The notes below the pieces were generated by a model. It did not search any database and was not told where the DNA came from. It saw only the letters and a list, made by a program, of their open reading frames with translations. From a virus: a stretch of 64,000 bases of DNA. Numbering within the stretch: position 1 is the stretch's first letter; each line of letters starts with the position of its first letter. A program made the translations under genes and the position numbers. Of this stretch, positions 9,980-53,896 are shown piece by piece. Location: the IMG/VR virus record IMGVR_UViG_3300050821_002957, positions 15,192-79,191 of that record; one strand, 5' to 3'.

Positions 9980-9980
9980 A

Positions 9981-37187: not shown

Positions 37188-37189
37188 AC

Positions 37190-38236: not shown

Positions 38237-38239
38237 TGA

Positions 38240-39265
38240 TCACCCCACGATCTTAATTCCGGCGAAGCTGGCGTTCAACTCAGTGTTGGTCCATGTTCCC
38301 GCTGTGTTGGGATTTTGCTGCCATAATGTTTGTGCAACGCTATATTGACTTAAACAGGTCACTGAGCTACCCAAATATGTCGTGCTACCTGTATTAATAA
38401 GCGGAGCGATGACACGAGAACCTACGTCATCCTTTCTTTGTGTACAGTTTACCTGGACACCATAAATTGTTCCTGTTAGTGCCAGGGTTCCCATCGTATA
38501 GTTGTCGATGTTACCAACTACTGCCGAACGGATATAAGTTGCATCGTCATCGGCTACTGGACTATCATCGACAGCTTGATAGTTGCTCCCTGCTCCAAAG
38601 GCAGTAAAATCATTCTCATTACCGTTTGCTGTAGGATACTGCGTCTGGATTCGACATTCACCCAAGAAATCTGTATTGAACGATCCTGTGTCATTTAGAA
38701 CGTACAGATCATCGATCATGAATTCAAAAGCGCCACTACTACCGAACGGTTGAAGGCGAATCGAATTGACATAATTGTTGCCAGTGTATTTTGTGTTGAG
38801 ACCTGTGGCGTTTAAATAAGTTGAACCATTGAGGCGAATCTGAACGTAGCCACTGGAATTATTAATGAACACTTTGATTTCCATATAGTTCCAGAAACCA
38901 AACGTAAATAGACCAGGAAGGCTCGTCGCAATGGTTGTACCGTTTCTTGTGACCTGAAAACCGGCATCACTAGTCACTCGAACATCTACTTGCGTAATCG
39001 GACTACTTGGACTGCCTGTTCCATCACCAAAAACGATAATAGGATTCGTCGGATCACCATATGCCAACGAAAAAGCTACACCCAAAACCACAGTCGATGA
39101 ATTAGCGATTGGTGTGGCAAGATACCCAGGTTGATTGTTCCAACCATATCCCATTCCACCAAAACGTCCAGGCACAATGCTAAGACCATTTTGGTAATAA
39201 GGCCAGACACGCTGGACTTGTGATTGATTATAGTAATCGAATCCTGTCATGAATAGAAGAGACAT
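38240..39265 (-). CDS. fibre/receptor-binding-like protein (family B, copy 3, most divergent)
   Basis: Tandem paralogue. Confidence 0.5.
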   Translation of the reverse strand: MSLLFMTGFDYYNQSQVQRVWPYYQNGLSIVPGRFGGMGYGWNNQPGYLATPIANSSTVVLGVAFSLAYGDPTNPIIVFGDGTGSPSSPITQVDVRVTSDAGFQVTRNGTTIATSLPGLFTFGFWNYMEIKVFINNSSGYVQIRLNGSTYLNATGLNTKYTGNNYVNSIRLQPFGSSGAFEFMIDDLYVLNDTGSFNTDFLGECRIQTQYPTANGNENDFTAFGAGSNYQAVDDSPVADDDATYIRSAVVGNIDNYTMGTLALTGTIYGVQVNCTQRKDDVGSRVIAPLINTGSTTYLGSSVTCLSQYSVAQTLWQQNPNTAGTWTNTELNASFAGIKIVG

Positions 39266-39266
39266 G

Positions 39267-40328
39267 TTAGCTCCCTAATGCAAAGTCACGATGAATGTTA
39301 AATTTGATCGAAATCATCTCTGCATCGGCGGCAGCAGTATCGCCTGCACTTCTTGCAAATTTGAAGAAAAATTCATCACCCGGCTGCAAACTACCCAAGA
39401 ACAACGGAGTGATACGACTCTTTACAATTGTGTCTGCTACACCAGGGACCGTAGTCGTAATTGAGGCGATGCTACCAAATGTAAAATCGTCAGTGCTTCC
39501 CGGCGAAATATATCCAGTCTGGCATTGCCATGTGACTGTTCCTGTCGTTGCTGCTGTGCGCCAATAAATGTCGAGTGATACTGTATCTCCTACCCAGTCA
39601 TCCGGCCAATAAAAGTGATCTTGAACCCAATAGTTGTTTCCAGCCGTGAAAGCAGCGACCGCATAAATTTCACCGTTCGTGCCTGTATAAGGAACAGCGT
39701 TCGGGGCATTTGTCAGACCAAAAGAGAAACCTAGAACTGCATTGGACCCCTGAAAGATTGCACCCTTGTAAAAGACCGGATAGTTAATGTTGCCAGTCGC
39801 AGGCTCAATGCTAGTGATTCGACCAGTGGCATCTACGGTGATTGTATCGAATCGATTGAATCCACCATAGGTTCCGGCTGTGACTCCGTTCGGCTTCAGA
39901 TACAAATTGGAAAACAATCCGCCGATGGTCGATCCACCTGCCTGATCGTTCTGCATGACAACGTTTCCAAAGTTCGCACCAAGACCAGCTTCAATCGCTT
40001 TGATTTCTGCGGCGATTTGATTGTGATGATAGGCCAACACGTAGCCCTTTACCGGAGCGTTTTGACCGTGGCTTGTGGGAGAAGTAAGATTATAACCACG
40101 AGTGCAACTCATCATGACGTTGCCAGAAATAGATCCTACAAGAATAATTTCGGTGTCAATCTGGACAAGACATGGAGCATTGTACTTCGTGCCATCGACA
40201 ACAGTAAACTGTGTCTGGGAGCCATCAATCGAGAACGTCAGATAACTAAGCGCACGATTAGCTGCGACAGTCAAGTTAATATCAGCGGCAACACCAGCAG
40301 GGAAAATTGGATTTTGTGGATTTGGCAT
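39267..40328 (-). CDS. tail fibre protein (family E N-terminus), immediately downstream of the small terminase gene
   Basis: N-terminal domain shared with the protein encoded at 25558-26535; GVTAGTYGGFNRFDTITVDATGRITSIE fibre motif. Confidence 0.55.
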   Translation of the reverse strand: MPNPQNPIFPAGVAADINLTVAANRALSYLTFSIDGSQTQFTVVDGTKYNAPCLVQIDTEIILVGSISGNVMMSCTRGYNLTSPTSHGQNAPVKGYVLAYHHNQIAAEIKAIEAGLGANFGNVVMQNDQAGGSTIGGLFSNLYLKPNGVTAGTYGGFNRFDTITVDATGRITSIEPATGNINYPVFYKGAIFQGSNAVLGFSFGLTNAPNAVPYTGTNGEIYAVAAFTAGNNYWVQDHFYWPDDWVGDTVSLDIYWRTAATTGTVTWQCQTGYISPGSTDDFTFGSIASITTTVPGVADTIVKSRITPLFLGSLQPGDEFFFKFARSAGDTAAADAEMISIKFNIHRDFALGS

Positions 40329-40330: not shown

Positions 40331-40828
40331 TTATTCTTCATCCGTATTTAGGGTCTCTGAAGTAACGTCAATGACCCGAAGAGCATCTTTCAAAGCTCCG
40401 TTAGCATTCAGTTCTTTCATCTGCTTCAATAATTCTCCGGTCGAACCGATAAATACAGCATTATTCTGCGTAATAGTATCTCCACCCGACTTCCCAGATT
40501 CACGTTCAATCTCTTTCTTGGTTTTCCGTAGACCAATCAGAGCCAAAGCAGTATCTCGGGCTTCTTTTTGTGCCATTGCTGCTGCTTCGACAGACCTAGA
40601 GTCCTGTTTTTCTTTGGCAAAAAAATTGGCATTATCTACCAATTCATTTCCCTTTTCTACTAGATTGTGAAGTGTGCGACGAGCGACATCAAAATCGTAT
40701 TCCATGTCCTTGTCGTCATTGCCGGTAGAGACAACTTCAGCAGGTTGGACGGTTACAATCTCTTGTGAGGCTGGCGAAGGTTCCAAATTAAAAGTGGCAT
40801 CAAGTTTTTCATTCACTGTTGGTTTCAT
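40331..40828 (-). CDS. 16: terminase small subunit, T4 gp16-like
   Basis: DDKDMEYDFDVARRTLHNLVEKGNELVD and NAVFIGSTGELLKQMKE parallel T4 gp16 [24 protein letters not shown] and NATVFMGSPTELMDEIGD. Similar size (165 aa) and an acidic C-terminus. Confidence 0.55.
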   Translation of the reverse strand: MKPTVNEKLDATFNLEPSPASQEIVTVQPAEVVSTGNDDKDMEYDFDVARRTLHNLVEKGNELVDNANFFAKEKQDSRSVEAAAMAQKEARDTALALIGLRKTKKEIERESGKSGGDTITQNNAVFIGSTGELLKQMKELNANGALKDALRVIDVTSETLNTDEE

Positions 40829-43059: not shown

Positions 43060-44112
43060 TTAGGGATTGAGCACGAGAGTAACTGAATTATTTTGTCGTG
43101 GATCTTGAACCGAAACAAACGTGATCGTAATAGTCTCCTGGGTGGCTCTAATACCCGTTCCAGCGGTGTACCTGAACGTGTTATGAACCGAATCTATGGA
43201 GTATGTATCGTTGCCAGATTGGGTCGTTGTTGGAACATCTGCCGTAAAAGCGATATTCGTTGCATTGACGATAGTGATCTGAAAAACCTGCGACTGACCG
43301 CCCGACAAAGTAACTGTCGAAGGTGTGACCAAAACAAGAACAGTAGTTTCTGTGATCGATGTCGTTCCATCTATAACAGCTATTGCATCTGAATTTGGTG
43401 GGTAAGCGATAATTGTCTGTGAAGGAAGCGATGCACCTTGAGTTGCTGTACCACCATCCACATTGAAACGAATCTGAGTCTCAAGGTTTACCATTGTCAT
43501 CTTGACTGGAGGGTAGAGATACGCCTTCGCCGTAAAATTTAGAGTCCATGTAATCATTCGACGATCAAACTGCCCTTCATAGTTGTCTTCCTGAACAATG
43601 TTGCCGCCAAAAAGAAGAACGATGTCTTTTTCTAGATTTAACGCTGGCATATCGTTCACATGGATCGTATAGTCTGGTGTGAAAAATGGAACGATCTGCT
43701 CGACAATCTGAAGACCATCTTCAAACGTCTTTGTCATGATATGGAGATCAATTCCGATGTTGTACGGAACTGGGTTGTACTGAGCGTTCAAGACACCACG
43801 ATTCCCCATGATGGCCTGAACGGTTCGACCAGTACTCGTGATTTTGCGGGAGGGATCGTACTGATAGCTTGTGATTTCATAACTCATGCGTGGCAAAATC
43901 ATTTCAGGCTGGTCATTTACTCCAGGCATTGGGTTCTGCGTATTACGAATGAACCATTTTTCCTTCGGCCCGTATTCACACGGAACCTCAATAGTCTGGT
44001 AGACCGTTCCATCAGCATTCATTCTGGCAATATGAAGATCAGAAAAGACCACACCGAAAGACTCGACAATCTTTCGGATACTTCCCCAATAAAATGGTGC
44101 ATTCTGTAGCAT
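43060..44112 (-). CDS. 15: tail sheath stabiliser / tail completion protein, T4 gp15 family, with a ~100-aa Ig-like C-terminal extension
   Basis: FEDGLQIVEQIVPFFTPDYT...RRMITWTLNFTAKAYLYPPV corresponds to T4 gp15 DDMFQIVEQILPYFQPHFN...RRRIEWSLTFEVNGWMYPPV. Confidence 0.75.
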   Translation of the reverse strand: MLQNAPFYWGSIRKIVESFGVVFSDLHIARMNADGTVYQTIEVPCEYGPKEKWFIRNTQNPMPGVNDQPEMILPRMSYEITSYQYDPSRKITSTGRTVQAIMGNRGVLNAQYNPVPYNIGIDLHIMTKTFEDGLQIVEQIVPFFTPDYTIHVNDMPALNLEKDIVLLFGGNIVQEDNYEGQFDRRMITWTLNFTAKAYLYPPVKMTMVNLETQIRFNVDGGTATQGASLPSQTIIAYPPNSDAIAVIDGTTSITETTVLVLVTPSTVTLSGGQSQVFQITIVNATNIAFTADVPTTTQSGNDTYSIDSVHNTFRYTAGTGIRATQETITITFVSVQDPRQNNSVTLVLNP

Positions 44113-44846
44113 TAGATCGGGTCTCCAAAAATATTCTTCTCAGTCGTACTGGTCTGCGGTGTGGAACCTGACGGAGGATTAAGATTTACCGTCGATTTGT
44201 CAGTAAGGTTTGTCGTCGCTCTAGTCTTGAGTGTGTTATTGTCGGCCAGCGGATCGTTCGCCACACTATCAATATTTTCAAAGACTGACTGGACGGCATC
44301 GATTGCAGGCACGCCCGTCGAAAACTTTTCGCTAGAGTAGTCAAACTTCTGGACATCGACACGCCAAATGTAACGATAGCCAACCTGATAGAACACGCTT
44401 TCATGTTCCGTAAAATTGATTTGGAAGAGATCGTTAGTCAGTGGCAAATAAATCAAGCTGCCTTCCATCGGTCTCTGTTCTGGTAAAGTGTAATTCGTGA
44501 TCGGGACGTTGTTGAAGCCGTCTGATTTCGTCGCTTGATTAAATCTACGTCTCGACACGATGAAATTTGCTGTCTCACGCATTTCAAGACCAAACTTACT
44601 GATCATGTAACGGTCGCCGCCAAAACCTTCAGACGGATTGTCAAAGTACATCTCGATTGGGAAAGAAGTTTTGAACGTGACGAGAGGATCTTCACCGAAC
44701 ACTGGATCAAGTTTCCCTGGAGTGCGAGGAATGTAATAGACCTTCATTCCGTTGATTCGGATCGCTTCGACAATCAAATCTTCGACTAGACGTTGTTCGC
44801 CCTTGCCGCCGAGCGTATTGAAGTAGTGGTTGACATTTCTCGCCAT
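44112..44846 (-). CDS. 14: neck protein, T4 gp14 family
   Basis: GEDPLVTFKTSF and GSLIYLPLTNDLFQINFTEHESVFYQVG correspond to T4 gp14 GEDLKNKFTKAW and [28 protein letters not shown]. Confidence 0.8.
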   Translation of the reverse strand: MARNVNHYFNTLGGKGEQRLVEDLIVEAIRINGMKVYYIPRTPGKLDPVFGEDPLVTFKTSFPIEMYFDNPSEGFGGDRYMISKFGLEMRETANFIVSRRRFNQATKSDGFNNVPITNYTLPEQRPMEGSLIYLPLTNDLFQINFTEHESVFYQVGYRYIWRVDVQKFDYSSEKFSTGVPAIDAVQSVFENIDSVANDPLADNNTLKTRATTNLTDKSTVNLNPPSGSTPQTSTTEKNIFGDPI

Positions 44847-44859
44847 ATCTGCTATTTAG
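44830..44859 (+). promoter_or_regulatory. sigma70-like promoter for Tpt1 (TTGACA, 17 nt, TATTTA; ATG 6 nt downstream) overlapping the divergent minus-strand late CTAAATA motif for gp14
   Basis: TTGACA 44830-44835; TATTTA 44853-44858; the plus-strand TATTTAG at 44853-44859 is the reverse complement of CTAAATA, 6 nt from the gp14 ATG. Confidence 0.45.
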
Positions 44860-44863
44860 AGAT

Positions 44864-45406
44864 ATGAACAAAATTCAAATGAGCAAATTTTTGTCGTATG
44901 TGTTACGGCATAAACCAGATTCCATCGGCATCGTCCTGGACAAAGCCGGATGGATCGATATTGATGAATTGATTGAAAAAAGTATTGCAGATGGCAAAGC
45001 CTTGGACCGCCTGTTACTTTACGATATCGTGGCTGAAGACAACAAACAGCGCTACGCCATCAGCGAGGACGGAAAACGGATTCGAGCAAACCAGGGGCAC
45101 TCTGTAGAAGTCGATCTGGAATTAAAAGCTGCGATTCCTCCTGTCAAATTGTTCCACGGCACCTATGTGGAAGCGGTCGATACGATCCTAAAACAGGGAT
45201 TGAAAAAAATGAAGCGCCACCACGTTCATTTGTCTGCCGATCCTGAAACAGCGGGAAAAGTGGGAAGTCGGCGAGGAAAAGCCGTTGTACTTGAAATCAA
45301 CACCAAAGATATGGTGAAACGAGGCATCAAGTTCTTCATTACGGCAAACGGGGTATGGCTCACAGATTTTGTCGATCCTGAATTCATTTCAGTTCCAACA
45401 ACTTAG
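44864..45406 (+). CDS. kptA: RNA 2'-phosphotransferase, Tpt1/KptA family
   Basis: LSKFLSYVLRHKPDSIGIVLDKAGWIDIDEL...HGT...GLKKMKRHHVHLSAD...NGVWLTDFVDPEFI matches the KptA/Tpt1 signature throughout. Confidence 0.8.
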   Translation: MNKIQMSKFLSYVLRHKPDSIGIVLDKAGWIDIDELIEKSIADGKALDRLLLYDIVAEDNKQRYAISEDGKRIRANQGHSVEVDLELKAAIPPVKLFHGTYVEAVDTILKQGLKKMKRHHVHLSADPETAGKVGSRRGKAVVLEINTKDMVKRGIKFFITANGVWLTDFVDPEFISVPTT

Positions 45407-45438
45407 AGCCTTCCCCGAAAAAATTTTTACAAAAAGTG

Positions 45439-45467
45439 TTGACTTGATACATCAATCTTGCTAGGAT
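45439..45467 (+). promoter_or_regulatory. sigma70-like promoter (TTGACT, 17 nt, TAGGAT); the Ku ATG is 7 nt after the -10 (leaderless)
   Basis: TTGACT 45439-45444; TAGGAT 45462-45467; ATG at 45474; GATACATC motif inside the spacer. Confidence 0.55.
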
Positions 45468-45473
45468 GGGTTC

Positions 45474-46394
45474 ATGGCAACGCATACTAAACCATCCACT
45501 CCCGATACGAACGCTGCTTCTTACCGAGCGTTCAAAACTGTAACCCTTAGCCTGAACGGTATCACCACTTTCCCGGCCAAACTGATTTCTGCGACGAGCG
45601 AAGAAAAGTCTCCCTTCCGACTCTGCGTAGTAAAGGACGGCAAGGCGCTTCCGGTCAGCCAGTTTTACACCGCAGACAACAAGGAATATTTTCCCATCGG
45701 CCAACTTGGTCGTGCAATTGAAATGGGGGAATCTCTAATTCCTCTGACTGCTGAGGAAATCTCCAGCACGAAAAAAATCGACGAAGAAGATGTGGATCAC
45801 GCCAAGAAATCTTTGATCGAACTGACGAGCTTCGTACCGTTGGCGCAGGTTGATCCGGTGTTTTTCCTCAATGGTTACGTAATTCTGCCGAATTTGGACA
45901 CAAAGGGCAAAGGCAATCCTCAGGCGGCGAATCTGTATCACATTCTGCTGCGTGCCCTGCTCAAGTCTGGGCGTGTCGGTGTCGCCAAGATGTACGACCG
46001 TGATCGTGAGTACAACATCATCGTTCGTCCAAGCACCGATGGCAAACGGTTGATGCTCCATACGATCTACACCAGCAATGAAGTGCGTGTGATTGATGTT
46101 CCTTCTCCCACCGTCATTGTGGATGAAATGCTAGTTGACCAGGGTGTCGAACTAATTTCCCTGAATTTTTCCAACTTCGATGCCACGTCGGTGTTTTCTC
46201 AGACGGACAACGCTGTTGCTTCTCTCGTCGCTCGCAAGAAAGCCGAAGCGAATGGCGAGACGGTTCCCGATACCCCTCACAAGACTTCGACTACCAACGT
46301 CGGCAGTTCTTTGCTGGATTCGTTGACGGCTTCCGTGAACATGGCGAAGGCGAAGAAAGCCACGCCTGCCACCACCACTACAGCGTCGGCGTAG
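45474..46394 (+). CDS. ku: Ku-domain DNA end-binding protein homologue
   Basis: YRAFKTVTLSLNGITTFPAKLISATSE, ...FVPLAQVDPVFFLNGYVILP..., ...LYHILLRALLKSGRVGVAKMYDRDREYNIIVRP...RLMLHTIYTSNEVR align with the bacterial Ku core (e.g. Mt-Ku RAIWTGSIAFGLVNVPVKVYSATAD, ...VDPMMFDRSYFLEP..., ...VLLAKTLAETDRMAIVHFTLRNKTRLAALR...VMMVHTLLWPDEIR). Confidence 0.75.
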   Translation: MATHTKPSTPDTNAASYRAFKTVTLSLNGITTFPAKLISATSEEKSPFRLCVVKDGKALPVSQFYTADNKEYFPIGQLGRAIEMGESLIPLTAEEISSTKKIDEEDVDHAKKSLIELTSFVPLAQVDPVFFLNGYVILPNLDTKGKGNPQAANLYHILLRALLKSGRVGVAKMYDRDREYNIIVRPSTDGKRLMLHTIYTSNEVRVIDVPSPTVIVDEMLVDQGVELISLNFSNFDATSVFSQTDNAVASLVARKKAEANGETVPDTPHKTSTTNVGSSLLDSLTASVNMAKAKKATPATTTTASA

Positions 46395-46420
46395 TTTTTT
46401 CTCTCTCCTGTTTTGAAAAG

Positions 46421-46449
46421 AAGCGGCCCCTAAAAAAGGCCGCTTTTTT
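46421..46449 (+). terminator. rho-independent terminator after the Ku gene
   Basis: AAGCGGCC-cctaaaaaa-GGCCGCTT 8-bp stem followed by TTTTTT. Confidence 0.7.
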
Positions 46450-46460
46450 AGATGTATCTA

Positions 46461-46489
46461 TTGACATTGGTGACTGGGTTTGGTAAGAT
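46461..46489 (+). promoter_or_regulatory. sigma70-like promoter (cTATTGACA, 17 nt, TAAGAT); ATG 7 nt downstream (leaderless); AGATGTATCTA motif immediately upstream of the -35
   Basis: TTGACA 46461-46466; TAAGAT 46484-46489; ATG at 46496. Confidence 0.6.
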
Positions 46490-46495
46490 TGGATT

Positions 46496-46954
46496 ATGCA
46501 AACGACACATTTCCCCGCTCCTCCGAAATCGATCCCGGCTCATCTCCTCCCCAAAACAAAAATGACCAAACGAGACCGAGAGTTTCAAGTCATCTACAAT
46601 GAGGCTCGAATCGCTGGCCTAGAGGCCGGTCGTACTTGCGGTGTCGTGCCAATGGTTGTCGAGCAGCACGCCAACCCCGCAAATGATGCATCACCAGTTA
46701 CACAGTCATGGTTCGTCGAGGGCGGCGTCTGCGGTTTCGCCTGGATCAAAATCAAACCGGCAAATTCTCCCTTTGCAAATTGGCTGAAGAAAAACGGCCA
46801 TGTTCGACCGGGCGCAGCGTATGACGGTGGCGTCAATGTGTGGGTGAAAGATTTCGGCCAGTCCATGCAGCGCAAAGAGGCATTTGCTTATGCCTTCGCC
46901 GACGTGTTGAACAAAGCTGGAATCAAGGCTTACGCCCAAAGTCGGATGGACTAA
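46496..46954 (+). CDS. hypothetical early protein
   Basis: Leaderless ATG set by the promoter geometry. No confident family assignment; conserved-looking C-terminus GVCGFAWIKIKP...WLKKNG. Confidence 0.45.
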   Translation: MQTTHFPAPPKSIPAHLLPKTKMTKRDREFQVIYNEARIAGLEAGRTCGVVPMVVEQHANPANDASPVTQSWFVEGGVCGFAWIKIKPANSPFANWLKKNGHVRPGAAYDGGVNVWVKDFGQSMQRKEAFAYAFADVLNKAGIKAYAQSRMD

Positions 46955-46955
46955 T

Positions 46956-47489
46956 ATGGACCTCGAAAAAGCATTCTTTGCCATTCAAGATCAACTTCGT
47001 ATCGCCGAGATGGAATACACCAAAACTCAACTTGGTCTCCGTCAAGAGGTTGAACGAAACATCAATCGCTTCATGGCTACTCTTGACATCACGAAAACTG
47101 TCGCCGATCTACGTGAGGCCCATGTCAAAGCGGGAAAACTCATGATTGAAGAGAAGGAACGCAAAGCACAGGCCGGGGAAAATGCACCGTACCCAATCGG
47201 CACCAAAATGAAATGCACGAAACTAGTTCGTCGTCATGGTCGTTATCGTGGCGACGAAACTACGATCTACGGCGTCGTCGAAGGCGTGACTCGTGATACA
47301 GTTTTGCCTATGACAATGGGATGCCGGTCGTGGCGTAAACCAGCCATCGGCAGCTACATCGTTCGTATTCTGAAAGCTGATGGGACACCTGGGAAAAATT
47401 TTGAAGAACTTTATGATCGCTGGACTCCGATGGACGAAACCATCCAGCGCAACGTGCCGGTTCTTCAAGTCACAGAGGAAATGCTTTAA
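46956..47489 (+). CDS. hypothetical protein
   Basis: TAATATG coupling to the previous gene. Confidence 0.45.
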   Translation: MDLEKAFFAIQDQLRIAEMEYTKTQLGLRQEVERNINRFMATLDITKTVADLREAHVKAGKLMIEEKERKAQAGENAPYPIGTKMKCTKLVRRHGRYRGDETTIYGVVEGVTRDTVLPMTMGCRSWRKPAIGSYIVRILKADGTPGKNFEELYDRWTPMDETIQRNVPVLQVTEEML

Positions 47490-47491
47490 CT

Positions 47492-47698
47492 ATGACACCA
47501 GCACTTACCGAATACCTTAAGACCGATTATCTGACCATTCTCGATCATCCGGCGCTTTCTCTCGACATGAAAGTCGGCTACCTGATGGCCGTCGTCAACA
47601 TCGATCCGGCTGCACACGGAGCGTCTCATCTACCTTTACGGGAACTTGCAAAGGCTATGAGAACGTTCGTCAGTGCATACACGACAGGAAGCTGGTAA
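47492..47698 (+). CDS. hypothetical small protein
   Basis: Start abuts the previous stop (TAACTATG coupling). Confidence 0.35.
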   Translation: MTPALTEYLKTDYLTILDHPALSLDMKVGYLMAVVNIDPAAHGASHLPLRELAKAMRTFVSAYTTGSW

Positions 47699-47699
47699 A

Positions 47700-47936
47700 A
47701 TGCTACTTCATTCCGAATTACAAGGCACACACGACGCCTACGGCCCAGCCATGACGATTCAGGAAATGCTTGACCTCCTGAGATCAATTCCACGGCAGGC
47801 TCGTCAAAATTACTTGTCGATGGTGGACAAAGATGGTAACATTGTCGATGTCACCGGGCTGCATTTTGCCCAGAGCGACCAAGCAGAGAAGTGGGAATTC
47901 AAAGTTTACGTCGTGACATCAAACAGCAAGGAATGA
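47700..47936 (+). CDS. hypothetical small protein (start at MLLHSELQG)
   Basis: ATG immediately after the previous stop. Confidence 0.35.
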   Translation: MLLHSELQGTHDAYGPAMTIQEMLDLLRSIPRQARQNYLSMVDKDGNIVDVTGLHFAQSDQAEKWEFKVYVVTSNSKE

Positions 47937-47937
47937 C

Positions 47938-48411
47938 ATGAAAAAATTATCCAAAGTCCATCTGAACAATCGAGACATCGTTACGGCAGCATTGCGTGAA
48001 ACCTTACAGACGTTCACTGAGGCGGTCGGTGAATACAATACAGAAGAGCAAGAGGCATTTGAGGTTCTTCAGACTGCCATCACTGCCTACAATGAACGCA
48101 TGGTCGAAGCCTGGGAAAAGGTCGAAACAGCACAGACGGCGCACAACGAATCGATAGACGCCGCCAATGAGTGGATGGGCCAGATTGTTTCAGACATCGA
48201 CGAATACATGTCGGGCAAGTCTGAAAAATGGCAAGACGGTGACGCAGCACAGGCGTACTCTGAATGGAAAGCTGCGTTTGAAGAAGACCTCGAACAAGAA
48301 GACATGGAACAACCGGAACAAATCGAAATCGAACAACCGGATGAACTCTCTCTTAACAGCGACGAAGATCCGGCTGATAAACTGGAACAACTACCCGAAG
48401 AATTGGGATGA
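47938..48411 (+). CDS. very acidic helical protein (candidate DNA mimic / anti-restriction type protein)
   Basis: 157 aa with an Asp/Glu-rich C-terminal half (EEDLEQEDMEQPEQIEIEQPDE); AAGGAATGAC Shine-Dalgarno-like sequence. Confidence 0.4.
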   Translation: MKKLSKVHLNNRDIVTAALRETLQTFTEAVGEYNTEEQEAFEVLQTAITAYNERMVEAWEKVETAQTAHNESIDAANEWMGQIVSDIDEYMSGKSEKWQDGDAAQAYSEWKAAFEEDLEQEDMEQPEQIEIEQPDELSLNSDEDPADKLEQLPEELG

Positions 48412-48584
48412 TCTTTCAGAAGAGAAAAGACGGTCTGATTGAAGCCATCATTGCCTGGAAGAGCTATATTGTCGTTGGATATGGCTCTTCGGAAGAAAAG
48501 GCAGCGCTTAATGCATACCGAGCGATTTGCAACTCCATACTTGATTGACAAAAATCCAATCAATGCGACACTAAATACGCATTG

Positions 48585-49082
48585 GTGGATGATCGCATAC
48601 GTCAAAAACTCGCTAATCTAGTTCGTCTGGCGAAGCGACCCGGTAACCCTCATGAGGGCGAAGCCGCTCGACTTGCTGCTATTCGACTGTCTCTGAAATA
48701 TGGGATAGCGTGTGAATTTACTGCAAGCGGTACAAATCATACCAGTACTCGACCCACAGCGAGTGCGCCGCCGCAAAGTTCGACACAGGAGACCCCTGTT
48801 TCTGACGATGTGATCTTCTACCAATGGATCAAAGCTCTAGCCAAACTTGGTTGGGGAATCCACGACTGCATCGACACCAAAATTGGACGCCAGATAAAAT
48901 TCCGCAAAGCTGGTTACAATTCTGAATTACGAGTCACACAGAGGGCCAAGGGCAACGGTCAAGACTTTGAGGCCGAGCACATTAAACGTCCTGATTCAAT
49001 CAATGGCGAGGATGTTTCCTTTTGCATTTTTATGACGATCCATCTTGGCGAACTCATCCGGCATATTTCATACACTAAATAG
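48585..49082 (+). CDS. DUF2786-like protein (N-terminal RIRKLLALAE-type motif); GTG/TTG start
   Basis: VDDRIRQKLANLVRLAKRPGNPHEGEAARLAAIRL; the plus-strand late-type CACTAAATACGC motif at 48569-48580 lies 8 nt upstream. Confidence 0.4.
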   Translation: MDDRIRQKLANLVRLAKRPGNPHEGEAARLAAIRLSLKYGIACEFTASGTNHTSTRPTASAPPQSSTQETPVSDDVIFYQWIKALAKLGWGIHDCIDTKIGRQIKFRKAGYNSELRVTQRAKGNGQDFEAEHIKRPDSINGEDVSFCIFMTIHLGELIRHISYTK

Positions 49083-49086
49083 CATC

Positions 49087-49347
49087 ATGAAATCCAAGTC
49101 TCTAATCCTTTGGGCAGCGATCCTTTTCGCATTGGGGCGCATATTCATTACGCCTCGCCTGACGAACATTCCCACGGTGACGGGAACTTACGAATCACTG
49201 GCGCATTTGTTTGTTGGCTTTTTGATCCTCGTGCCCTTCTATGATCGTAAAGAAGAGCTTGGACCTTCCAAATTGTACGGTTGGATCGGCTGGGGACTAG
49301 CGAGCGGGGAAGCCGTCTGGTTTGCGGTACAAAAAATCCACGGATAA
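49087..49347 (+). CDS. small membrane protein (two predicted transmembrane helices)
   Basis: MKSKSLILWAAILFALGRIFITP...; ACTAAATAG motif 5 nt upstream of the ATG. Confidence 0.4.
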   Translation: MKSKSLILWAAILFALGRIFITPRLTNIPTVTGTYESLAHLFVGFLILVPFYDRKEELGPSKLYGWIGWGLASGEAVWFAVQKIHG

Positions 49348-49354
49348 ATAGGGC

Positions 49355-49867
49355 ATGAAACTGAGAGCCGTATTACCATTCTTGCTTTTACCCCTCCTTC
49401 TCGTATCATCATCCCTATCTGTTGCTGATTCCGAAGCTGCCTCACCACAAGTCATTATGATGATGTATCATCGTGCGTATCCAAAGTACGTACCAGAACA
49501 CATCACACCAGAATTTCTGAAAGAAAAACATGAATTAGAACAGGTCTACAAAAAGTGGGCTGTAATCTTTCATATGGAAGATTGGAATACAGAAGTGACG
49601 CCGGTCCCGCTTTCCTTCCTTAAAGAATTTTGTCCGTCTGAATGTTTTGCCGGAAGCAACTGGAACATCTATGACGAAAGCGGTGTAATGTTCATTCTCC
49701 AACGATCAGAATACACTAACGAAATGAAAAAGAGTTTGCGTCAGCGACATGTAAGTATCTGGTCTGATCAACGAAACAGCGTTCTTCATGAAATTCTTCA
49801 CAATGTAATTGAACATGGATACGAAGAAGCCGTAGTCAGCACACTTGCAAATTTGTTGAATCCCTGA
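49355..49867 (+). CDS. secreted protein with a Sec signal peptide
   Basis: MKLRAVLPFLLLPLLLVSSSLSVADS; GGATAAATAGGGC motif 4 nt upstream of the ATG. Confidence 0.45.
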   Translation: MKLRAVLPFLLLPLLLVSSSLSVADSEAASPQVIMMMYHRAYPKYVPEHITPEFLKEKHELEQVYKKWAVIFHMEDWNTEVTPVPLSFLKEFCPSECFAGSNWNIYDESGVMFILQRSEYTNEMKKSLRQRHVSIWSDQRNSVLHEILHNVIEHGYEEAVVSTLANLLNP

Positions 49868-49879
49868 TAAGCTCGCTAA

Positions 49880-50704
49880 ATGGGCGTAGACGCACGTATT
49901 CTCCTTAAAATCACCGATTCTGCCGCATGGCTCGATGCAGCACAACTTAGGAACATCTCAGCTAGGCTTACTGAGGCCATCGGCTACGACCACTTCTTCA
50001 TCGATACAGATGAAGATCGTCATGCAATTTCATTTGTAATCGACGAGAACAAAAAGTATCCCGCCGACTATGAACAGGAACCCGGCAAACCTTTCGATCC
50101 GACTGGTCCTGCGGTCTACGGACAAGATTCCAATGAAGAACCATATTTGATCGCCAAACCGAACGAACAATTTCTTGAAGTGCATCTATTCTCTCGATAC
50201 TACGGTGAAGACTATGCTCGTGGGGATTGGCCGATGATCTACTTCACGCTGATGTGGTGCTTTCACAATATTCCTCATTGTGAAGTCTGGTACGGTGGTG
50301 ATTCCAGCGGTTGTCTCATGGAACACATGACAGTGGAACGTATGGTCGAAGTGACAAAATTCTTTTTGACAACAGGCTACAAGACATATCGCACTTACGC
50401 CCGAGACCATGAATACATCTGTGAATTTTGTAAGGTCATAGCTATTAGGTCTGGTGGCGGTGGTGGGACAGATTTTTATTCATGCGATTCCTGCGGCCAA
50501 CATTGGAACATCGAACATGTAGGTGCATTCAAACGTTTGGTGACCCGGTTTGGAGATGAGCCGACCGACGACAAACACGACAACAAAATCCCGTCGTTTA
50601 CGATGTCCCAACAAATGCGAGAAGGAAAACGCACACTCTATCCATTCGATGGCATTTTCCGCAAAAGATACGCTCCAAAGGTTGAAAAACAGACCGTTCA
50701 ATAG
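49880..50704 (+). CDS. hypothetical protein with a C-terminal Cys cluster
   Basis: CEFCKV...SCDSCGQHW. Confidence 0.45.
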   Translation: MGVDARILLKITDSAAWLDAAQLRNISARLTEAIGYDHFFIDTDEDRHAISFVIDENKKYPADYEQEPGKPFDPTGPAVYGQDSNEEPYLIAKPNEQFLEVHLFSRYYGEDYARGDWPMIYFTLMWCFHNIPHCEVWYGGDSSGCLMEHMTVERMVEVTKFFLTTGYKTYRTYARDHEYICEFCKVIAIRSGGGGGTDFYSCDSCGQHWNIEHVGAFKRLVTRFGDEPTDDKHDNKIPSFTMSQQMREGKRTLYPFDGIFRKRYAPKVEKQTVQ

Positions 50705-50724
50705 CTCCTATCTGATAGTGCCAC

Positions 50725-50753
50725 TTGACTTTAGCAGCAAAGTGTGGTAAGAT
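50725..50753 (+). promoter_or_regulatory. sigma70-like promoter (TTGACT, 17 nt, TAAGAT) with an AGATGTATCTA motif overlapping the -10; the downstream gene has a conventional AAGGAG leader
   Basis: TTGACT 50725-50730; TAAGAT 50748-50753; ATG at 50786. Confidence 0.55.
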
Positions 50754-50785
50754 GTATCTAGTGGCGCATCTCAGAAAGGAGCAAT

Positions 50786-51286
50786 ATGCTGCTAAAAAAT
50801 ACATCCCAGTACAGTGATCAGATAGTACGGTTCATCGTCAAGCACGCCGCCAGCACTATCGATATAAGCAACGTTGCAATCAACGTCAAGAATTCTACTC
50901 ATCGGTACGCTGGTCGAGCATTTCCGTACATTCCTTCTGAATCACCTTGGCGGGGAACTCCGAAGGCTCGATACCTGATCGTCTGTCGTGTCGGTGGGCC
51001 AAAATTATTCCCCTATCAATGCAAAGGATACCCCGGACGCAAAATTGAAAATGGTCGCTGGCCGACGCCTTTGCTCGCCGATTGGATGGAATGCATGGTC
51101 ATGTTGGTTGCTCATGAACTTTTTCACATTCAGCAATTCCGTGTGAAAGCTCGATGCACCGAACTCGAAACTGAAGCCTTCGGAATGCGCCGCCTGGAAG
51201 CGTGGAGAGAGCTTGTCGCTGCTGGGAAGGTGCCGAGCCTGCCTCTTCAAACGAACGGCTGTAGCGTCTCAGAAGCGCAAGAATGA
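50786..51286 (+). CDS. hypothetical protein with an HExxH motif (possible zinc metallopeptidase)
   Basis: MLVAHELFHIQQF, followed by Glu residues about 20 aa downstream. Confidence 0.4.
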   Translation: MLLKNTSQYSDQIVRFIVKHAASTIDISNVAINVKNSTHRYAGRAFPYIPSESPWRGTPKARYLIVCRVGGPKLFPYQCKGYPGRKIENGRWPTPLLADWMECMVMLVAHELFHIQQFRVKARCTELETEAFGMRRLEAWRELVAAGKVPSLPLQTNGCSVSEAQE

Positions 51287-51420
51287 GGTATTGGCTGCGA
51301 AGCTCGAACATTGCCAAGCCATGCTCCAAAAGAACACGACCAAAATGAAACGTGCCGAGACCATCGTCAAAAAGTGGCGCACCAAAGTCCGATACTACGA
51401 AAAAAAGATTGATACATCTA

Positions 51421-51449
51421 TTGACATCTCGGTCTGAAGTTGCTATCAT
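51421..51449 (+). promoter_or_regulatory. sigma70-like promoter (TGATACATCTATTGACA, 17 nt, TATCAT); ATG 8 nt downstream (leaderless)
   Basis: TTGACA 51421-51426; TATCAT 51444-51449; ATG at 51457. Confidence 0.55.
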
Positions 51450-51456
51450 AGGTTTA

Positions 51457-51576
51457 ATGAAACGCAACGGACACCAAATCAAAAAGATCGGTTACACTCG
51501 CAAGGGCTGGAGCAAAAACTATGCTATCCGTGCCGACCGCCGCAACGGGAAAGCCGCTGCCAAGGACACCAACTAA
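51457..51576 (+). CDS. small basic protein (39 aa)
   Basis: MKRNGHQIKKIGYTRKGWSKNYAIRADRRNGKAAAKDTN; the only ATG at leaderless distance from the promoter. Confidence 0.3.
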   Translation: MKRNGHQIKKIGYTRKGWSKNYAIRADRRNGKAAAKDTN

Positions 51577-51577
51577 C

Positions 51578-51766
51578 ATGAACAACTTCACCAAACCCTT
51601 CATTGTTTGGTCGATTGGTGATTTTGAAGGATGGATTCCGCAAGAATTCGAGTCCCAGGAAGCCATCGTCGAAGCGATCAAGAAGGGCGAAATCCGTGGT
51701 GAATACGCCGTAACTCGATTAATGCCGGTCAAGGTCACCGTCGATTTGCAAGACTGTGTACGATAA
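51578..51766 (+). CDS. hypothetical small protein (start MNNFTKP)
   Basis: TAACATG coupling. Confidence 0.35.
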   Translation: MNNFTKPFIVWSIGDFEGWIPQEFESQEAIVEAIKKGEIRGEYAVTRLMPVKVTVDLQDCVR

Positions 51767-51776
51767 AGGAAAAACC

Positions 51777-51941
51777 ATGCAACCAACCATTCGTGAATCT
51801 CTTAAAAACGCTTTGGAAGCCCTGAAATCCTCAGGCTTCCCTCCGGGCGGCGCAGTGTACGACGATCTGAACCAAGTTCTTCTCGATTTGGGCAACGAAG
51901 ATATGTATGGGACGCTGCTTGAAGATCAGTTGACGGCATAA
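51777..51941 (+). CDS. hypothetical small protein (start MQPTIRE)
   Basis: AAAGGAAAAACC Shine-Dalgarno-like sequence. Confidence 0.35.
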   Translation: MQPTIRESLKNALEALKSSGFPPGGAVYDDLNQVLLDLGNEDMYGTLLEDQLTA

Positions 51942-51957
51942 AAGATACATCTACCCA

Positions 51958-51986
51958 TTGACACCAAACAGAGAAATTGGTACACT
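51958..51986 (+). promoter_or_regulatory. sigma70-like promoter (AGATACATCTAcccaTTGACA, 17 nt, TACACT); ATG 7 nt downstream (leaderless)
   Basis: TTGACA 51958-51963; TACACT 51981-51986; ATG at 51993. Confidence 0.55.
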
Positions 51987-51992
51987 TTACTC

Positions 51993-52238
51993 ATGGGACT
52001 TGGAAACAACAGAGATTATGTCAAGAGCGAACGGAAGATCAAATGCCGTCTCGCTGTCCTCGCACAAAGAACAAAGGAATTGACGGACACTGGCATGGGC
52101 TATGGCACTGCGTTCCGGCAAGCATCCGCAGGACTCAATGCTGGTGAACTGGGAGACCGACTCAAAGCCTGGGTCGATCCGGTCCTAAAGCACAAACGTG
52201 AAATCCGTGCGGCACGAAAGGCGGCAGAAAATGACTAA
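51993..52238 (+). CDS. hypothetical small protein
   Basis: Leaderless geometry. Confidence 0.4.
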   Translation: MGLGNNRDYVKSERKIKCRLAVLAQRTKELTDTGMGYGTAFRQASAGLNAGELGDRLKAWVDPVLKHKREIRAARKAAEND

Positions 52239-52401
52239 GCTCCAACACGTTTCAATTTTGAAGAATGGTCTAAAACAATCCGTGATGACCGCCATCGAAG
52301 AAGCGGTTTTCAGCGGTCTCACACCAGAACAAGTCAGTGACGTTTTGACGGAACTGGGCTACGCTCCCAAACTGAATACGAACGAACTCCCGGCATACTA
52401 A
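52231..52401 (+). CDS. hypothetical small protein (start MTKLQHV)
   Basis: ATGA overlap. Confidence 0.35.
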   Translation: MTKLQHVSILKNGLKQSVMTAIEEAVFSGLTPEQVSDVLTELGYAPKLNTNELPAY

Positions 52402-52402
52402 C

Positions 52403-53183: not shown

Positions 53184-53184
53184 A

Positions 53185-53803: not shown

Positions 53804-53833
53804 AACGCTCCCAGGACATTTCGACATAGAAAA

Positions 53834-53859: not shown

Positions 53860-53896
53860 AAAATCGTTTATAGAGCGTTTCTGAGCGAAGAAAAGG

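What the first reader, a model, noticed from the sequence alone, without database searches (positions are those of the whole stretch)
44864..46394. Early gene pair encoding an RNA 2'-phosphotransferase (Tpt1/KptA) and a Ku homologue in a T4-like phage
Both products act on nucleic-acid ends. Ku binds DNA ends in NHEJ. Tpt1 removes 2'-phosphate at RNA ligation junctions and can ADP-ribosylate 5'-phosphate ends. In a phage with linear, terminally redundant DNA, a Ku homologue could protect ends from RecBCD (analogous to Mu Gam, which is Ku-like) or support end joining. Tpt1 could complete a yeast-type RNA-repair pathway for nuclease-cleaved tRNA, or modify ends. I do not recognise this combination from T4-like phages. 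Each gene has its own sigma70-type promoter, and a strong terminator follows Ku.
Basis: partly seen in the sequence, partly recalled or inferred. Interest (0 to 1): 0.75.

Follow-up and report, generated by a model that had tools for sequence, protein, structure and literature searches.

The report
Ku plus Tpt1 cassette, T4-like phage
An uncultured T4-like phage carries, at the head of its early-gene block, an intact RNA 2'-phosphotransferase (Tpt1) next to a divergent DNA-end-binding Ku protein, and related phages keep the same two-gene cassette, which is new for this phage group though both protein families are known.

Summary
ORF 44864-45406 is a Tpt1/KptA enzyme that passes curated cut-offs and keeps the Arg-His-Arg-Arg catalytic tetrad. 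ORF 45474-46394 is a divergent Ku: it passes Pfam, has the bacterial Ku fold, and keeps part of the C-terminal helix that bacterial Ku uses to bind LigD. The window is a T4-like late structural module. The pair opens an 8.9-kb opposite-strand block of sigma70-type, mostly leaderless early genes. Each gene has its own promoter, and a 12-bp hairpin terminator follows Ku.

New here: about 20 metagenomic relatives keep Ku at the same position, next to gp14. In 13 loci examined, the gene just upstream of Ku is Tpt1 in 8, a calcineurin-like phosphoesterase in 3 and probably a fourth, and an uncharacterised 176-aa gene in 1, where Tpt1 lies 3 kb downstream. No sequenced phage outside actinophages has a comparable Ku, and 80 bacterial Tpt1 loci have no Ku nearby.

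Function is inferred, not shown. The most likely role is an early cassette in which Ku holds or protects DNA ends and the partner enzyme processes terminal phosphates. No RNA ligase, kinase or gp2 was found in the window. Known families, new conserved pairing.

The parts
44830..44858 (+). Early sigma70-type promoter of Tpt1: TTGACA, 17 nt, TATTTA, with an upstream TG. The -10 ends 5 nt before the ATG, so the mRNA is predicted to be leaderless. The promoter lies inside the 5' end of the divergent gp14 gene. Its -10 is the reverse complement of gp14's late-promoter-like TAAATA.
   Evidence: Motif search. The same arrangement occurs in front of the slot gene in L008, L009, L010 and L004.
44864..45406 (+). 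Tpt1/KptA, an NAD+-dependent RNA 2'-phosphotransferase (180 aa). The catalytic tetrad R15, H16, R63, R118 is intact.
   Evidence: Pfam 173.6 bits against a cut-off of 26. NCBIfam equivalog NF002014, 245 bits against 239. Full-length alignment to Runella Tpt1 7kw8, E 1.1e-52. The tetrad is invariant in alignment A3. Its essentiality in the Runella enzyme is from PMC6097658.
45439..45467 (+). Ku's own early promoter: TTGACT, 17 nt, TAGGAT, with an upstream TG. The -10 ends 6 nt before the ATG, so the mRNA is predicted to be leaderless.
   Evidence: A sigma70-like promoter precedes Ku in all six loci whose upstream sequence was inspected.
45474..46394 (+). Divergent bacterial-type Ku (306 aa). 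It has a conserved N-terminal octapeptide and a variable linker, then the beta-barrel/bridge core (about residues 18-230), then a C-terminal helix LLDSLTAS (residues 280-287) that aligns with the LigD-binding helix of M. tuberculosis Ku, then a short basic tail.
   Evidence: Pfam PF02735, 68 bits. AF2 model, pLDDT 73. Top Foldseek hits are B. subtilis and M. tuberculosis Ku, E 3e-11 to 1e-9. Profile against M. tuberculosis Ku, E 4.6e-24, aligned through the C-terminus. Clade alignment A1.
46417..46449 (+). Intrinsic terminator hairpin (12-bp stem, 9-nt loop, U-run) that closes the Tpt1-Ku unit.
   Evidence: Fold: dG -17.6 kcal/mol, z = -2.8. Hairpins followed by a T-run also follow Ku in L002, L004, L009 and L012.
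46461..46489 (+). Promoter of the next early gene (46496-46954). It marks the right-hand boundary of the cassette.
44853..44859 (-). CTAAATA late-promoter-like motif 6 nt upstream of the gp14 start codon. It overlaps the Tpt1 -10 element on the other strand.
   Evidence: The same motif precedes gp13, portal, tube, TerL and other - strand genes.

Best explanation
This is a conserved early-expressed 'nucleic-acid end' cassette of an uncultured clade of T4-like phages. Its layout is [early promoter]-slot enzyme-[early promoter]-Ku-[terminator], placed divergently next to the late gene gp14.

Ku is the fixed component. It most likely forms a homodimeric ring that threads onto the ends of linear phage DNA soon after infection and shields them from host end-dependent exonucleases of the RecBCD/AddAB type, as Mu Gam does. 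It keeps part of the C-terminal helix that bacterial Ku uses to recruit a ligase, so handing ends to a ligase remains possible.

The slot upstream holds an enzyme that removes or transfers phosphate groups on nucleic acids. Here that enzyme is Tpt1, a catalytically intact and otherwise ordinary bacterial-type NAD+-dependent 2'-phosphotransferase. In other clade members it is a calcineurin-like phosphoesterase.

Shown: the family identities, the intact active site, the promoter/terminator architecture, and conservation of the cassette. Inferred: early timing, end binding and protection, and any cooperation between the two proteins.
For: Identity. establish both families. The Tpt1 tetrad R15/H16/R63/R118 matches the essential R16/H17/R64/R119 of Runella Tpt1.

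Early unit. Six sigma70-type promoters with an extended -10 lie on the + strand of the block, while - strand structural genes carry CTAAATA. A terminator follows Ku. In 9 loci, 23 of 40 such promoters have an ATG 5-7 nt after the -10, against 2 expected (P about 4e-20).

Conservation. Twenty Ku homologues at 48-66% identity form a separate clade; the next-best bacterial Ku scores E 1e-11. There are 12 clusters at E <= 1e-30 among 1.84 billion representative proteins.

Position. Ku lies on the opposite strand from gp14, close to it, in every locus that shows that side.

Slot gene. It is Tpt1 in 8 loci: the window, the P0002 contig, L006, L008, L009, L010, L011 and L012. It is phosphoesterase phrog_547 in L002/3, L004/5 and L007, and probably in the P0013 contig. 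One contig has an unknown 176-aa gene, then Ku, then four genes, then Tpt1.

Co-divergence. Tpt1 and Ku have diverged to a similar degree: L008 is 53% and 49% identical to the window, L006 is 69% and 58%. Genes downstream of Ku vary freely, but the slot holds only two enzyme families in 12 of 13 loci.

Ligase-binding helix. The C-terminal helix aligns with M. tuberculosis Ku. The window's S287 corresponds to S258, a strongly conserved residue needed for LigD stimulation.
Against: No biochemistry is available. Ku fails the NCBIfam equivalog cut-off (90.7 bits against 150). The monomer model superposes poorly on solved Ku (TM 0.34-0.45).

The LigD contacts E246, V248 and K260 of M. tuberculosis Ku are not conserved. 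A Gam-like protector would not need the C-terminal helix at all.

T4-type replication depends on resected DNA ends, which a tight end-binder could block.

The closest characterised Tpt1, from Runella, is poor at removing terminal phosphates (PMC6573784), which weakens the idea that Tpt1 and the phosphoesterase are equivalent. The phosphoesterase's only named relative, PdeM, scores 22-25 bits against a cut-off of 150.

The slot borders a module junction where homing endonucleases also insert (L007, L002), so adjacency could reflect an insertion hot spot. Whether the phage also has a gp2 end-protector is unknown.
Confidence: 0.45

Rival explanations
1. Minimal phage NHEJ. Ku binds double-strand breaks made in phage DNA by restriction enzymes, CRISPR nucleases or homing endonucleases. 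Through its C-terminal helix it recruits a ligase, either host LigD or the phage's own ATP-dependent ligase. The slot enzyme (Tpt1 or the phosphoesterase) cleans blocking phosphates from the ends, as the phosphoesterase domain of LigD does. Rejoined genomes escape restriction.
For: The phage clade keeps a C-terminal LLxxLxAS helix that aligns with the LigD-binding helix of M. tuberculosis Ku, and the equivalent of S258 is nearly invariant. Several members have basic C-terminal tails like the extended C-terminus of bacterial Ku. Mycobacteriophage Ku proteins are known to work with host LigD (my own recall of Pitcher et al. 2006, not checked here; those phages are listed as carrying Ku in PMC11936186). 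The only named family the phosphoesterase hits is the ligase-associated DNA-damage endonuclease PdeM, weakly. The window carries many homing endonuclease genes.
Confidence: 0.22
2. Two independent accessory genes that merely sit side by side. Tpt1 completes a tRNA/RNA repair pathway: a 2H cyclic phosphodiesterase and an RNA ligase encoded elsewhere in the genome leave a 2'-PO4, which Tpt1 removes. This counters host anticodon nucleases. Ku does something unrelated with DNA ends.
For: Phage KptA has been interpreted in exactly this way, and calcineurin-like phosphatases occur in analogous phage RNA-repair neighbourhoods (PMC9503650). Tpt1 here is an ordinary, slowly evolving bacterial-type enzyme, 53-60% identical to cellular KptA, whereas Ku is only about 28% identical to cellular Ku. 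That points to separate origins. Eighty bacterial Tpt1 loci have no Ku within 10 kb. In one relative Tpt1 lies 3 kb from Ku rather than adjacent to it. Each gene has its own promoter.
Against: No RNA ligase, kinase, 2H enzyme or tRNA gene is in the 64-kb window. The pair is adjacent in 8 of 13 loci across roughly 50% protein divergence, and the two genes share a unit bounded by one terminator. The slot is limited to two enzyme families, while the rest of the block varies freely.
Confidence: 0.3
3. Chemical plus steric capping. Tpt1 uses NAD+ to ADP-ribosylate the 5'-phosphates of phage DNA ends or of RNA, and Ku rings sit on the same ends. Together they make the ends unrecognisable to host exonucleases or end-sensing defence systems.
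For: Tpt1 family enzymes ADP-ribosylate 5'-phosphorylated DNA and RNA in vitro, and a 5'-p-ADPR-DNA intermediate has been captured in crystals (PMC12678800). The conserved genomic coupling to a DNA-end binder is described under the best explanation.
Against: The activity varies widely between Tpt1 orthologues, and nothing shows that this one has it. The alternative occupant of the slot is a hydrolytic metallophosphoesterase, which cannot make such a cap. That suggests phosphate removal rather than capping is the shared theme.
Confidence: 0.1
4. Ku acts as a decoy or inhibitor. The phage protein forms inactive heterodimers with host Ku, or sequesters host LigD, and so shuts down host NHEJ, which can damage phage genomes by error-prone joining.
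For: Host NHEJ can act as an antiphage factor in mycobacteria by imprecise repair of phage ends (PMC12848934). The phage Ku keeps part of the LigD-binding helix but has a divergent core.
Against: That mechanism was described for cos-site phages. T4-like phages use headful packaging and have no cos ends. No evidence shows that the host has NHEJ.
Confidence: 0.05

Closest known systems
Bacterial Ku (M. tuberculosis Rv0937c, B. subtilis YkoV; TIGR02772, PF02735)
   Same: Single-domain Ku of about 270-310 aa with a beta-barrel/bridge core. It has the same predicted fold. It has a C-terminal helix with the conserved Ser that aligns with the LigD-binding segment, and a short basic tail.
   Different: Only about 20-28% identical. 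It falls below the NCBIfam equivalog cut-off. It has an extra conserved N-terminal octapeptide plus a linker. It is encoded by a lytic T4-like phage, with no LigD gene nearby.
Mycobacteriophage Ku (Omega, Corndog and cluster-J phages such as Ariel and Courthouse)
   Same: A phage-encoded Ku homologue. These are the only phage matches in 50,697 records.
   Different: 23-26% identity over 60-65% of the protein. Those phages are temperate or cos-type siphoviruses of Actinobacteria, and their Ku is thought to help circularise the genome through host LigD. This is a T4-like myovirus with headful packaging, and its Ku is paired with Tpt1.
Phage Mu Gam
   Same: A Ku-related, early-expressed phage protein that binds DNA ends and blocks RecBCD. 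This is the best functional analogy.
   Different: Gam is about 170 aa and core-only. The window protein hits Pfam Ku and not the Mu Gam family, and it keeps a bacterial-type C-terminal region.
Runella slithyformis Tpt1 / E. coli KptA (PF01885, NF002014)
   Same: Full-length alignment with E 1.1e-52. Same length, same catalytic tetrad, and it passes the equivalog cut-off.
   Different: Encoded by a phage, transcribed from a leaderless early promoter, and fixed next to Ku. Eighty bacterial Tpt1 loci show no such neighbour.
KptA-based RNA-repair neighbourhoods of jumbo phages (Iyer, Burroughs, Anantharaman and Aravind 2022, PMC9503650)
   Same: A phage-encoded KptA. Calcineurin-like phosphatases appear as alternative end-cleaning enzymes.
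   Different: Those neighbourhoods contain RNA ligase, 2H, Nudix or Macro genes. Here none of these is nearby, and the partner is a DNA-end binder.
T4 gp2 DNA end-protector
   Same: The proposed role: protecting the ends of a linear, terminally redundant genome from RecBCD.
   Different: Unrelated protein. gp2 is packaged in the virion, while this Ku is predicted to be made early after infection. Whether this phage also has gp2 is unknown.

Membership tests
Tpt1/KptA RNA 2'-phosphotransferase | Profile match above curated cut-offs over the full length | tested here: met
   Pfam PF01885, 173.6 bits against 26, covering model positions 3-176 of 177. NCBIfam equivalog NF002014, 245 bits against 239.
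Tpt1/KptA RNA 2'-phosphotransferase | Catalytic Arg-His-Arg-Arg tetrad | tested here: met
   R15, H16, R63 and R118 align with Runella R16, H17, R64 and R119. These residues are essential in the Runella enzyme (PMC6097658). They are invariant in the 16-sequence alignment A3 and in six phage-clade Tpt1 sequences.
Tpt1/KptA RNA 2'-phosphotransferase | NAD+-dependent removal of an internal RNA 2'-phosphate | not testable with these tools
   Needs an enzyme assay or yeast tpt1-delta complementation.
Bacterial-type Ku | Ku beta-barrel core recognised by sequence profile | tested here: met
   Pfam PF02735, 68.1 bits against 25. Clade profile against M. tuberculosis Ku, E 4.6e-24, and against B. subtilis Ku, E 7e-19.
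Bacterial-type Ku | Equivalog-level similarity to cellular NHEJ Ku (TIGR02772) | tested here: not met
   90.7 bits against a cut-off of 150, although the alignment spans model positions 11-259 of 259. It is a divergent subfamily, not an orthologue-level match.
Bacterial-type Ku | Ku fold (barrel plus bridge/arm) | tested here: met
   AF2 model with pLDDT 73. The top seven Foldseek PDB hits are bacterial Ku chains (9vnq, 9i91, 9ig8, 8v53), E 3e-11 to 1e-8, probability 1.0. TM is only 0.34-0.45, as expected when a monomer model is compared with ring-forming chains.
Bacterial-type Ku | Minimal C-terminal region that binds LigD | tested here: inconclusive
   The helix LLDSLTAS aligns with M. tuberculosis LLAKLEAS, and the equivalent of S258 (S287) is nearly invariant in the clade. 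The equivalents of E246, V248 and K260 differ.
Bacterial-type Ku | Homodimeric ring that binds double-stranded DNA ends | not testable with these tools
   Only single-chain prediction was available. This needs EMSA or a structure.
Bacterial NHEJ system (Ku + LigD) | A LigD-type ligase/polymerase/phosphoesterase encoded with Ku or in the host | tested here: inconclusive
   None was found among the 64 window ORFs scanned with PHROGs.
Mu Gam family | Match to the Gam profile; core-only protein of about 170 aa | tested here: not met
   The Pfam scan at E <= 0.1 returned Ku (plus a sub-threshold AbiU2 hit), not Mu Gam. The protein is 306 aa and has a bacterial-type C-terminus.
Fungal/plant-type RNA repair pathway (ligase leaving 2'-PO4 + cyclic phosphodiesterase + kinase + Tpt1) | RNA ligase, 2H/cyclic phosphodiesterase and polynucleotide kinase encoded by the same genome | tested here: inconclusive
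   None was found in the window (same PHROG scans). There are no tRNA genes.
T4-like phage (T4 core structural module) | Syntenic gp13-gp23 core genes and T4-type late promoters | tested here: met
   gp13, gp14, gp15, TerS, TerL, sheath, tube, portal, protease, scaffold and major capsid protein are present in T4 order on the - strand. The capsid protein is 61-63% identical to those of Pelagibacter phage HTVC008M and Methylophilales phage Melnitz. CTAAATA motifs precede the late genes.

The most novel reading that the evidence does not exclude
Ku and its slot partner (Tpt1 or the calcineurin-like phosphoesterase) act on the same substrate, phage DNA ends. On this reading the cassette is a compact, phage-encoded 'heal-and-hold' or 'cap-and-hold' system. 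It would be the first natural setting that ties the NAD+-dependent chemistry of bacterial-type Tpt1/KptA to DNA ends, either by removing terminal phosphates or by 5'-phospho-ADP-ribosylation. That would give a physiological role to an enzyme whose function outside fungal and plant tRNA splicing has been unclear for two decades.
Probability: 0.15. Interest if true: 0.85.

Novelty: new variant of a known kind. Interest (0 to 1): 0.58.

Why it matters
Ku has been reported in viruses only from actinophages (PMC11936186), where it serves genome circularisation. Finding a distinct, conserved Ku lineage in strictly lytic T4-like phages widens the question of how phages with linear genomes manage their ends.

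The role of Tpt1/KptA in bacteria and phages that lack a ligase generating 2'-phosphates is an acknowledged open problem (PMC6573784). A conserved pairing with a DNA-end binder, together with the fact that a metallophosphoesterase can take Tpt1's place, gives a concrete hypothesis that can be tested cheaply: purify two small proteins and test them on defined DNA and RNA ends, with and without RecBCD or a ligase.

If the genes turn out to be unrelated neighbours, the result is still a useful annotation of a new accessory-gene set in an abundant environmental phage group.

Tried and rejected
- **Nucleotide search.** Megablast of 44000-47500 against 50,697 phage records found no match, so no annotated close relative exists.
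- **Metagenome scan.** The JGI metagenome-contig scan with the Ku profile confirmed no hit. The IMG/VR scan gave only 3 loci.
- **Pathway partners.** I looked for RNA ligase, polynucleotide kinase, 2H phosphodiesterase, DNA ligase, LigD and gp2 by scanning 64 window ORFs with PHROGs, and some with Pfam and NCBIfam. None was found.
- **RNA genes.** There are no tRNA genes in the window and no Rfam family in 44000-54000.
- **A bacterial origin for the pairing.** I tested whether the Tpt1-Ku pairing was inherited from a bacterial operon. Eighty bacterial Tpt1 loci (1.27 Mb) contain no Ku, and the positive controls were found. Rejected.
- **Recent foreign insertion.** GC content of the pair (0.455-0.49) is within the range of the early block (0.44-0.53) and close to the late genes (0.43-0.46). 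There is no clear compositional signal.
- **Prophage or cellular context.** Bacterial-looking genes lie 1 kb beyond Ku in L002. They are fragmented and absent from the second contig carrying the same Ku (L003), so this is most likely a chimeric assembly.
- **The full contig.** The 405,631-bp contig that carries this exact Ku could not be fetched. Only a 21.6-kb Logan contig was returned.
Full report
**Observation.**
- The first ORF matches Pfam PF01885 (Tpt1/KptA) at E 5.5e-51 and PHROG 5470 at E 2.7e-65.
- The second matches Pfam PF02735 (Ku) at E 1.2e-18 and PHROG 4873, 'Ku-like DNA end binding', at E 2.5e-17.

**Genomic setting.**
The window is the late structural module of a T4-like phage, read on the - strand in T4 gene order.
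- The order is gp13 (58751-59494), gp14 (44112-44846), gp15 (43060-44112), TerS (40331-40828) and TerL (20124-21803).
- It continues with sheath (17178-19562), tube (16580-17128), portal (14089-15939), protease (9287-10015), scaffold (7131-8696) and major capsid protein (5730-7109).
- The capsid protein is 61-63% identical to those of Pelagibacter phage HTVC008M and Methylophilales phage Melnitz. It is 56-61% identical to those of cyanobacterial and Sinorhizobium T4-like phages.
- No phage record matches at the nucleotide level, so this is an uncultured lineage.
- In T4, gp13 and gp14 are neighbours (from my general knowledge of the T4 genome). Here an 8.9-kb block of about 21 mostly small + strand ORFs (44864-53803) sits between them, together with two large unknown - strand ORFs and a GIY-YIG homing endonuclease. 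Tpt1 and Ku are the first two genes of that block.

**Regulatory anatomy.**
- A clade-specific sigma70-type motif, TTGAC[AT]-N14-TGnTAnnn[TA], occurs 7 times in the 64 kb. Six of the hits are on the + strand inside the block, at 44830, 45439, 46461, 50725, 51421 and 51958.
- The generic scan had found the Ku promoter but not the Tpt1 promoter, whose -10 is TATTTA.
- In five of the six block promoters an ATG lies 5-7 nt after the -10, so the first gene of each unit is predicted to be translated from a leaderless mRNA. Across the window and eight related loci, 23 of 40 such promoters show this geometry against 2 expected (binomial P about 4e-20), and all 40 lie on the Ku strand.
- Genes internal to operons have ordinary Shine-Dalgarno sequences.
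- Many - strand structural genes are preceded by CTAAATA, which resembles the T4-type late promoter TATAAATA (the T4 consensus is from my general knowledge). gp14's copy lies 6 nt before its ATG and is the reverse complement of the Tpt1 -10 element. This supports calling the + block early and the - strand late.
- After Ku comes a 12-bp hairpin with a U-run (46417-46449, dG -17.6 kcal/mol, z = -2.8), then the next promoter (46461-46489). The unit is therefore P-Tpt1-P-Ku-T.
- Relatives have the same layout. A sigma70-like promoter precedes Ku in all six loci inspected. Leaderless promoters precede the slot gene in L008, L009 and L010. Hairpins followed by a T-run follow Ku in L002, L004, L009 and L012.

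**Tpt1.**
- The protein aligns end to end with Runella slithyformis Tpt1 (PDB 7kw8, E 1.1e-52) and passes the NCBIfam equivalog cut-off (245 bits against 239).
- R15, H16, R63 and R118 correspond to Runella R16, H17, R64 and R119. Each of those is essential in the Runella enzyme (PMC6097658). They are invariant in a 16-sequence alignment and in six phage-clade Tpt1 sequences.
- Its homologues form a small group at 61-73% identity, which on the contexts checked are the phage clade. Below that is a continuum of cellular enzymes at 53-60% identity, for example from Myxococcota.
- It is therefore an ordinary bacterial-type enzyme under purifying selection, not a fast-evolving derivative.

**Ku.**
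- An AF2 model built on the clade alignment has pLDDT 73. Its best PDB matches are the recently solved bacterial Ku structures from B. subtilis (9vnq) and M. tuberculosis (9i91, 9ig8, 8v53), at E 3e-11 to 1e-8. Eukaryotic Ku70/80 chains follow.
- The clade profile matches M. tuberculosis Ku at E 4.6e-24, and the alignment runs through the C-terminus. The window's NVGSSLLDSLTASVNMAK aligns with M. tuberculosis EDVSDLLAKLEASVKARS.
- In M. tuberculosis this segment binds LigD. S258 is strongly conserved there and needed for ligase stimulation (bioRxiv 10.64898/2025.12.12.693941). The equivalent S287 is nearly invariant in the phage clade, but E246, V248 and K260 have no conserved counterparts.
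- Several clade members end in a basic tail.
- The protein is divergent. It scores 90.7 bits against the 150-bit cut-off of TIGR02772 and is about 28% identical to the nearest cellular Ku.
- It also has a conserved N-terminal octapeptide, M-[AP]-T-[QH]-T-K-[AP]-S, followed by a variable Ser/Thr-rich linker. Neither aligns with the solved bacterial Ku chains. The function of this extension is unexplained.

**Comparative evidence.**
- A search of 5.8 billion proteins found 19 homologues at 48-66% identity. The next-best hit is ordinary Ku at E 1e-11.
- An exhaustive profile search of 1.84 billion representative proteins found only 12 clusters at E <= 1e-30. The lineage is rare.
- In every locus that shows the upstream side, Ku lies on the opposite strand from gp14-gp15 and close to them.
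- The gene just upstream of Ku falls into three cases:

| Gene upstream of Ku | Loci |
|---|---|
| Tpt1 | window, P0002 contig, L006, L008, L009, L010, L011, L012 (8 loci) |
| Calcineurin-like phosphoesterase, 185-190 aa | L002/L003, L004/L005, L007 (3 loci); probably also the 192-aa gene of the P0013 contig |
| Uncharacterised 176-aa gene | P0031 contig, where Tpt1 lies four genes downstream of Ku |

- The phosphoesterase matches PHROG 547 at E 1e-29 to 1e-32 and PDB 1xm7 at E 8e-15. The L004/L005 copies pass the Pfam Metallophos threshold.
- A neighbour-joining tree of Ku interleaves the Tpt1-linked and phosphoesterase-linked members, which implies at least two replacements.
- Tpt1 and Ku have diverged to similar extents between lineages: 53% and 49% identity for L008 against the window, and 69% and 58% for L006.
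- Downstream of Ku the gene content differs from locus to locus. Only a 274-aa protein and a protein with a DUF2786-like N-terminus recur.
- The pairing was not inherited from bacteria. The 80 bacterial loci closest to this Tpt1 (1.27 Mb) contain no Ku within 10 kb, and the phage controls were detected.

**Interpretation.**
- The identities are secure; the functions are inferred.
- I think the most likely reading is an early cassette for handling nucleic-acid ends. Ku is the fixed member and binds the ends of linear phage DNA, giving Gam-like protection from RecBCD/AddAB-type nucleases. The partly retained C-terminal helix leaves ligase recruitment open.
- The partner slot is restricted to two unrelated enzymes that both act on phosphate groups of nucleic acids. 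That restriction is the main argument for a functional link rather than chance adjacency.
- Four points argue for caution:
  - The slot sits at a module boundary where homing endonucleases also insert.
  - Each gene has its own promoter.
  - The best-characterised close homologue of this Tpt1 is poor at removing terminal phosphates (PMC6573784).
  - The phosphoesterase's only named relative, the ligase-associated DNA-damage endonuclease PdeM, is a very weak hit (22-25 bits against a cut-off of 150).
- The standard reading of phage KptA is RNA repair together with a 2H enzyme and an RNA ligase (PMC9503650). It cannot be excluded, because only 64 kb of a contig reported as 405,631 bp could be examined. 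Within the window there is no ligase, kinase, 2H enzyme, gp2 or tRNA gene.

**Comparison with what is known.**
- Phage Ku is known from mycobacteriophages and one Streptomyces phage (PMC11936186). Mu Gam is its functional cousin.
- Phage KptA is known mainly from jumbo phages (PMC9503650).
- A full-text search for 'Ku-like', 'T4-like' and 'phage' together returned no paper.
- Three things are new: the phage lineage, the divergent Ku subfamily, and the conserved cassette with Tpt1 or a phosphoesterase.
- I rate this a new variant of a known kind, of moderate to good interest. It would be of high interest only if the two proteins prove to act together on DNA ends.

Noticed in passing
window 44830-51993 (+); also L004, L006-L012: The early sigma70-type promoters of this phage clade are placed so that an ATG lies 5-7 nt after the -10 element. 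This holds for 23 of 40 promoters against 2 expected (P about 4e-20), which implies that the first gene of each early unit is routinely translated from a leaderless mRNA. Genes internal to operons keep Shine-Dalgarno sites.
   Followed up: partly
window 44847-44863: The gap between the divergent genes gp14 and Tpt1 is only 17 bp. The same bases (TATTTA / TAAATA, 44853-44858) serve as the -10 of the early Tpt1 promoter on one strand and as the late-promoter-like CTAAATA of gp14 on the other. This may be a built-in early/late switch.
   Followed up: partly
window 45474-45530 (Ku residues 1-18): The N-terminal octapeptide M-[AP]-T-[QH]-T-K-[AP]-S is nearly invariant across the phage Ku clade and is followed by a variable Ser/Thr-rich linker. 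It does not align with the solved bacterial Ku chains, and it is conserved whether or not the mRNA has a leader. Its function is unknown.
   Followed up: no
[not shown]
   Followed up: partly
window 93-524 (+), 8722-9318 (+), 13254-13721 (-), 19615-20127 (-), 58133-58723 (-): Five homing-endonuclease-like genes (HNH/EndoVII-type and GIY-YIG) are scattered through the structural module. Relatives carry others (GIY-YIG, LAGLIDADG) at different sites, including between gp14 and the slot gene.
   Followed up: no
window 20124-21803 and 40331-40828 (-): The small terminase subunit gene is separated from the large subunit gene by about 18 kb of fibre-like genes and a series of paralogous genes of 340-360 aa (36108-40328, PHROG 2448). 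In T4 the two are adjacent.
   Followed up: no
L002 11900-20900 (ENA ERZ25039529 contig_88707): About 1 kb downstream of Ku this 78.7-kb contig switches to fragmented bacterial chemotaxis, two-component and ferrochelatase genes. The second contig carrying the same Ku (L003) does not. This is probably a chimeric long-read assembly rather than an integrated T4-like element.
   Followed up: partly
whole window (source contig): The exact Ku and Tpt1 proteins are recorded on a contig of 405,631 bp. That is far larger than known T4-like genomes. It is either a jumbo T4-like phage or a concatemer or mis-assembly, and it could not be fetched.
   Followed up: no
window 53897-56347 and 56348-58099 (-): Two large ORFs (816 and 583 aa) lie between the early block and gp13 and have no PHROG or Pfam match. 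One of them is preceded by a CTAAATA motif. They are presumably novel late or structural proteins. Similar large ORFs occupy this position in relatives.
   Followed up: no
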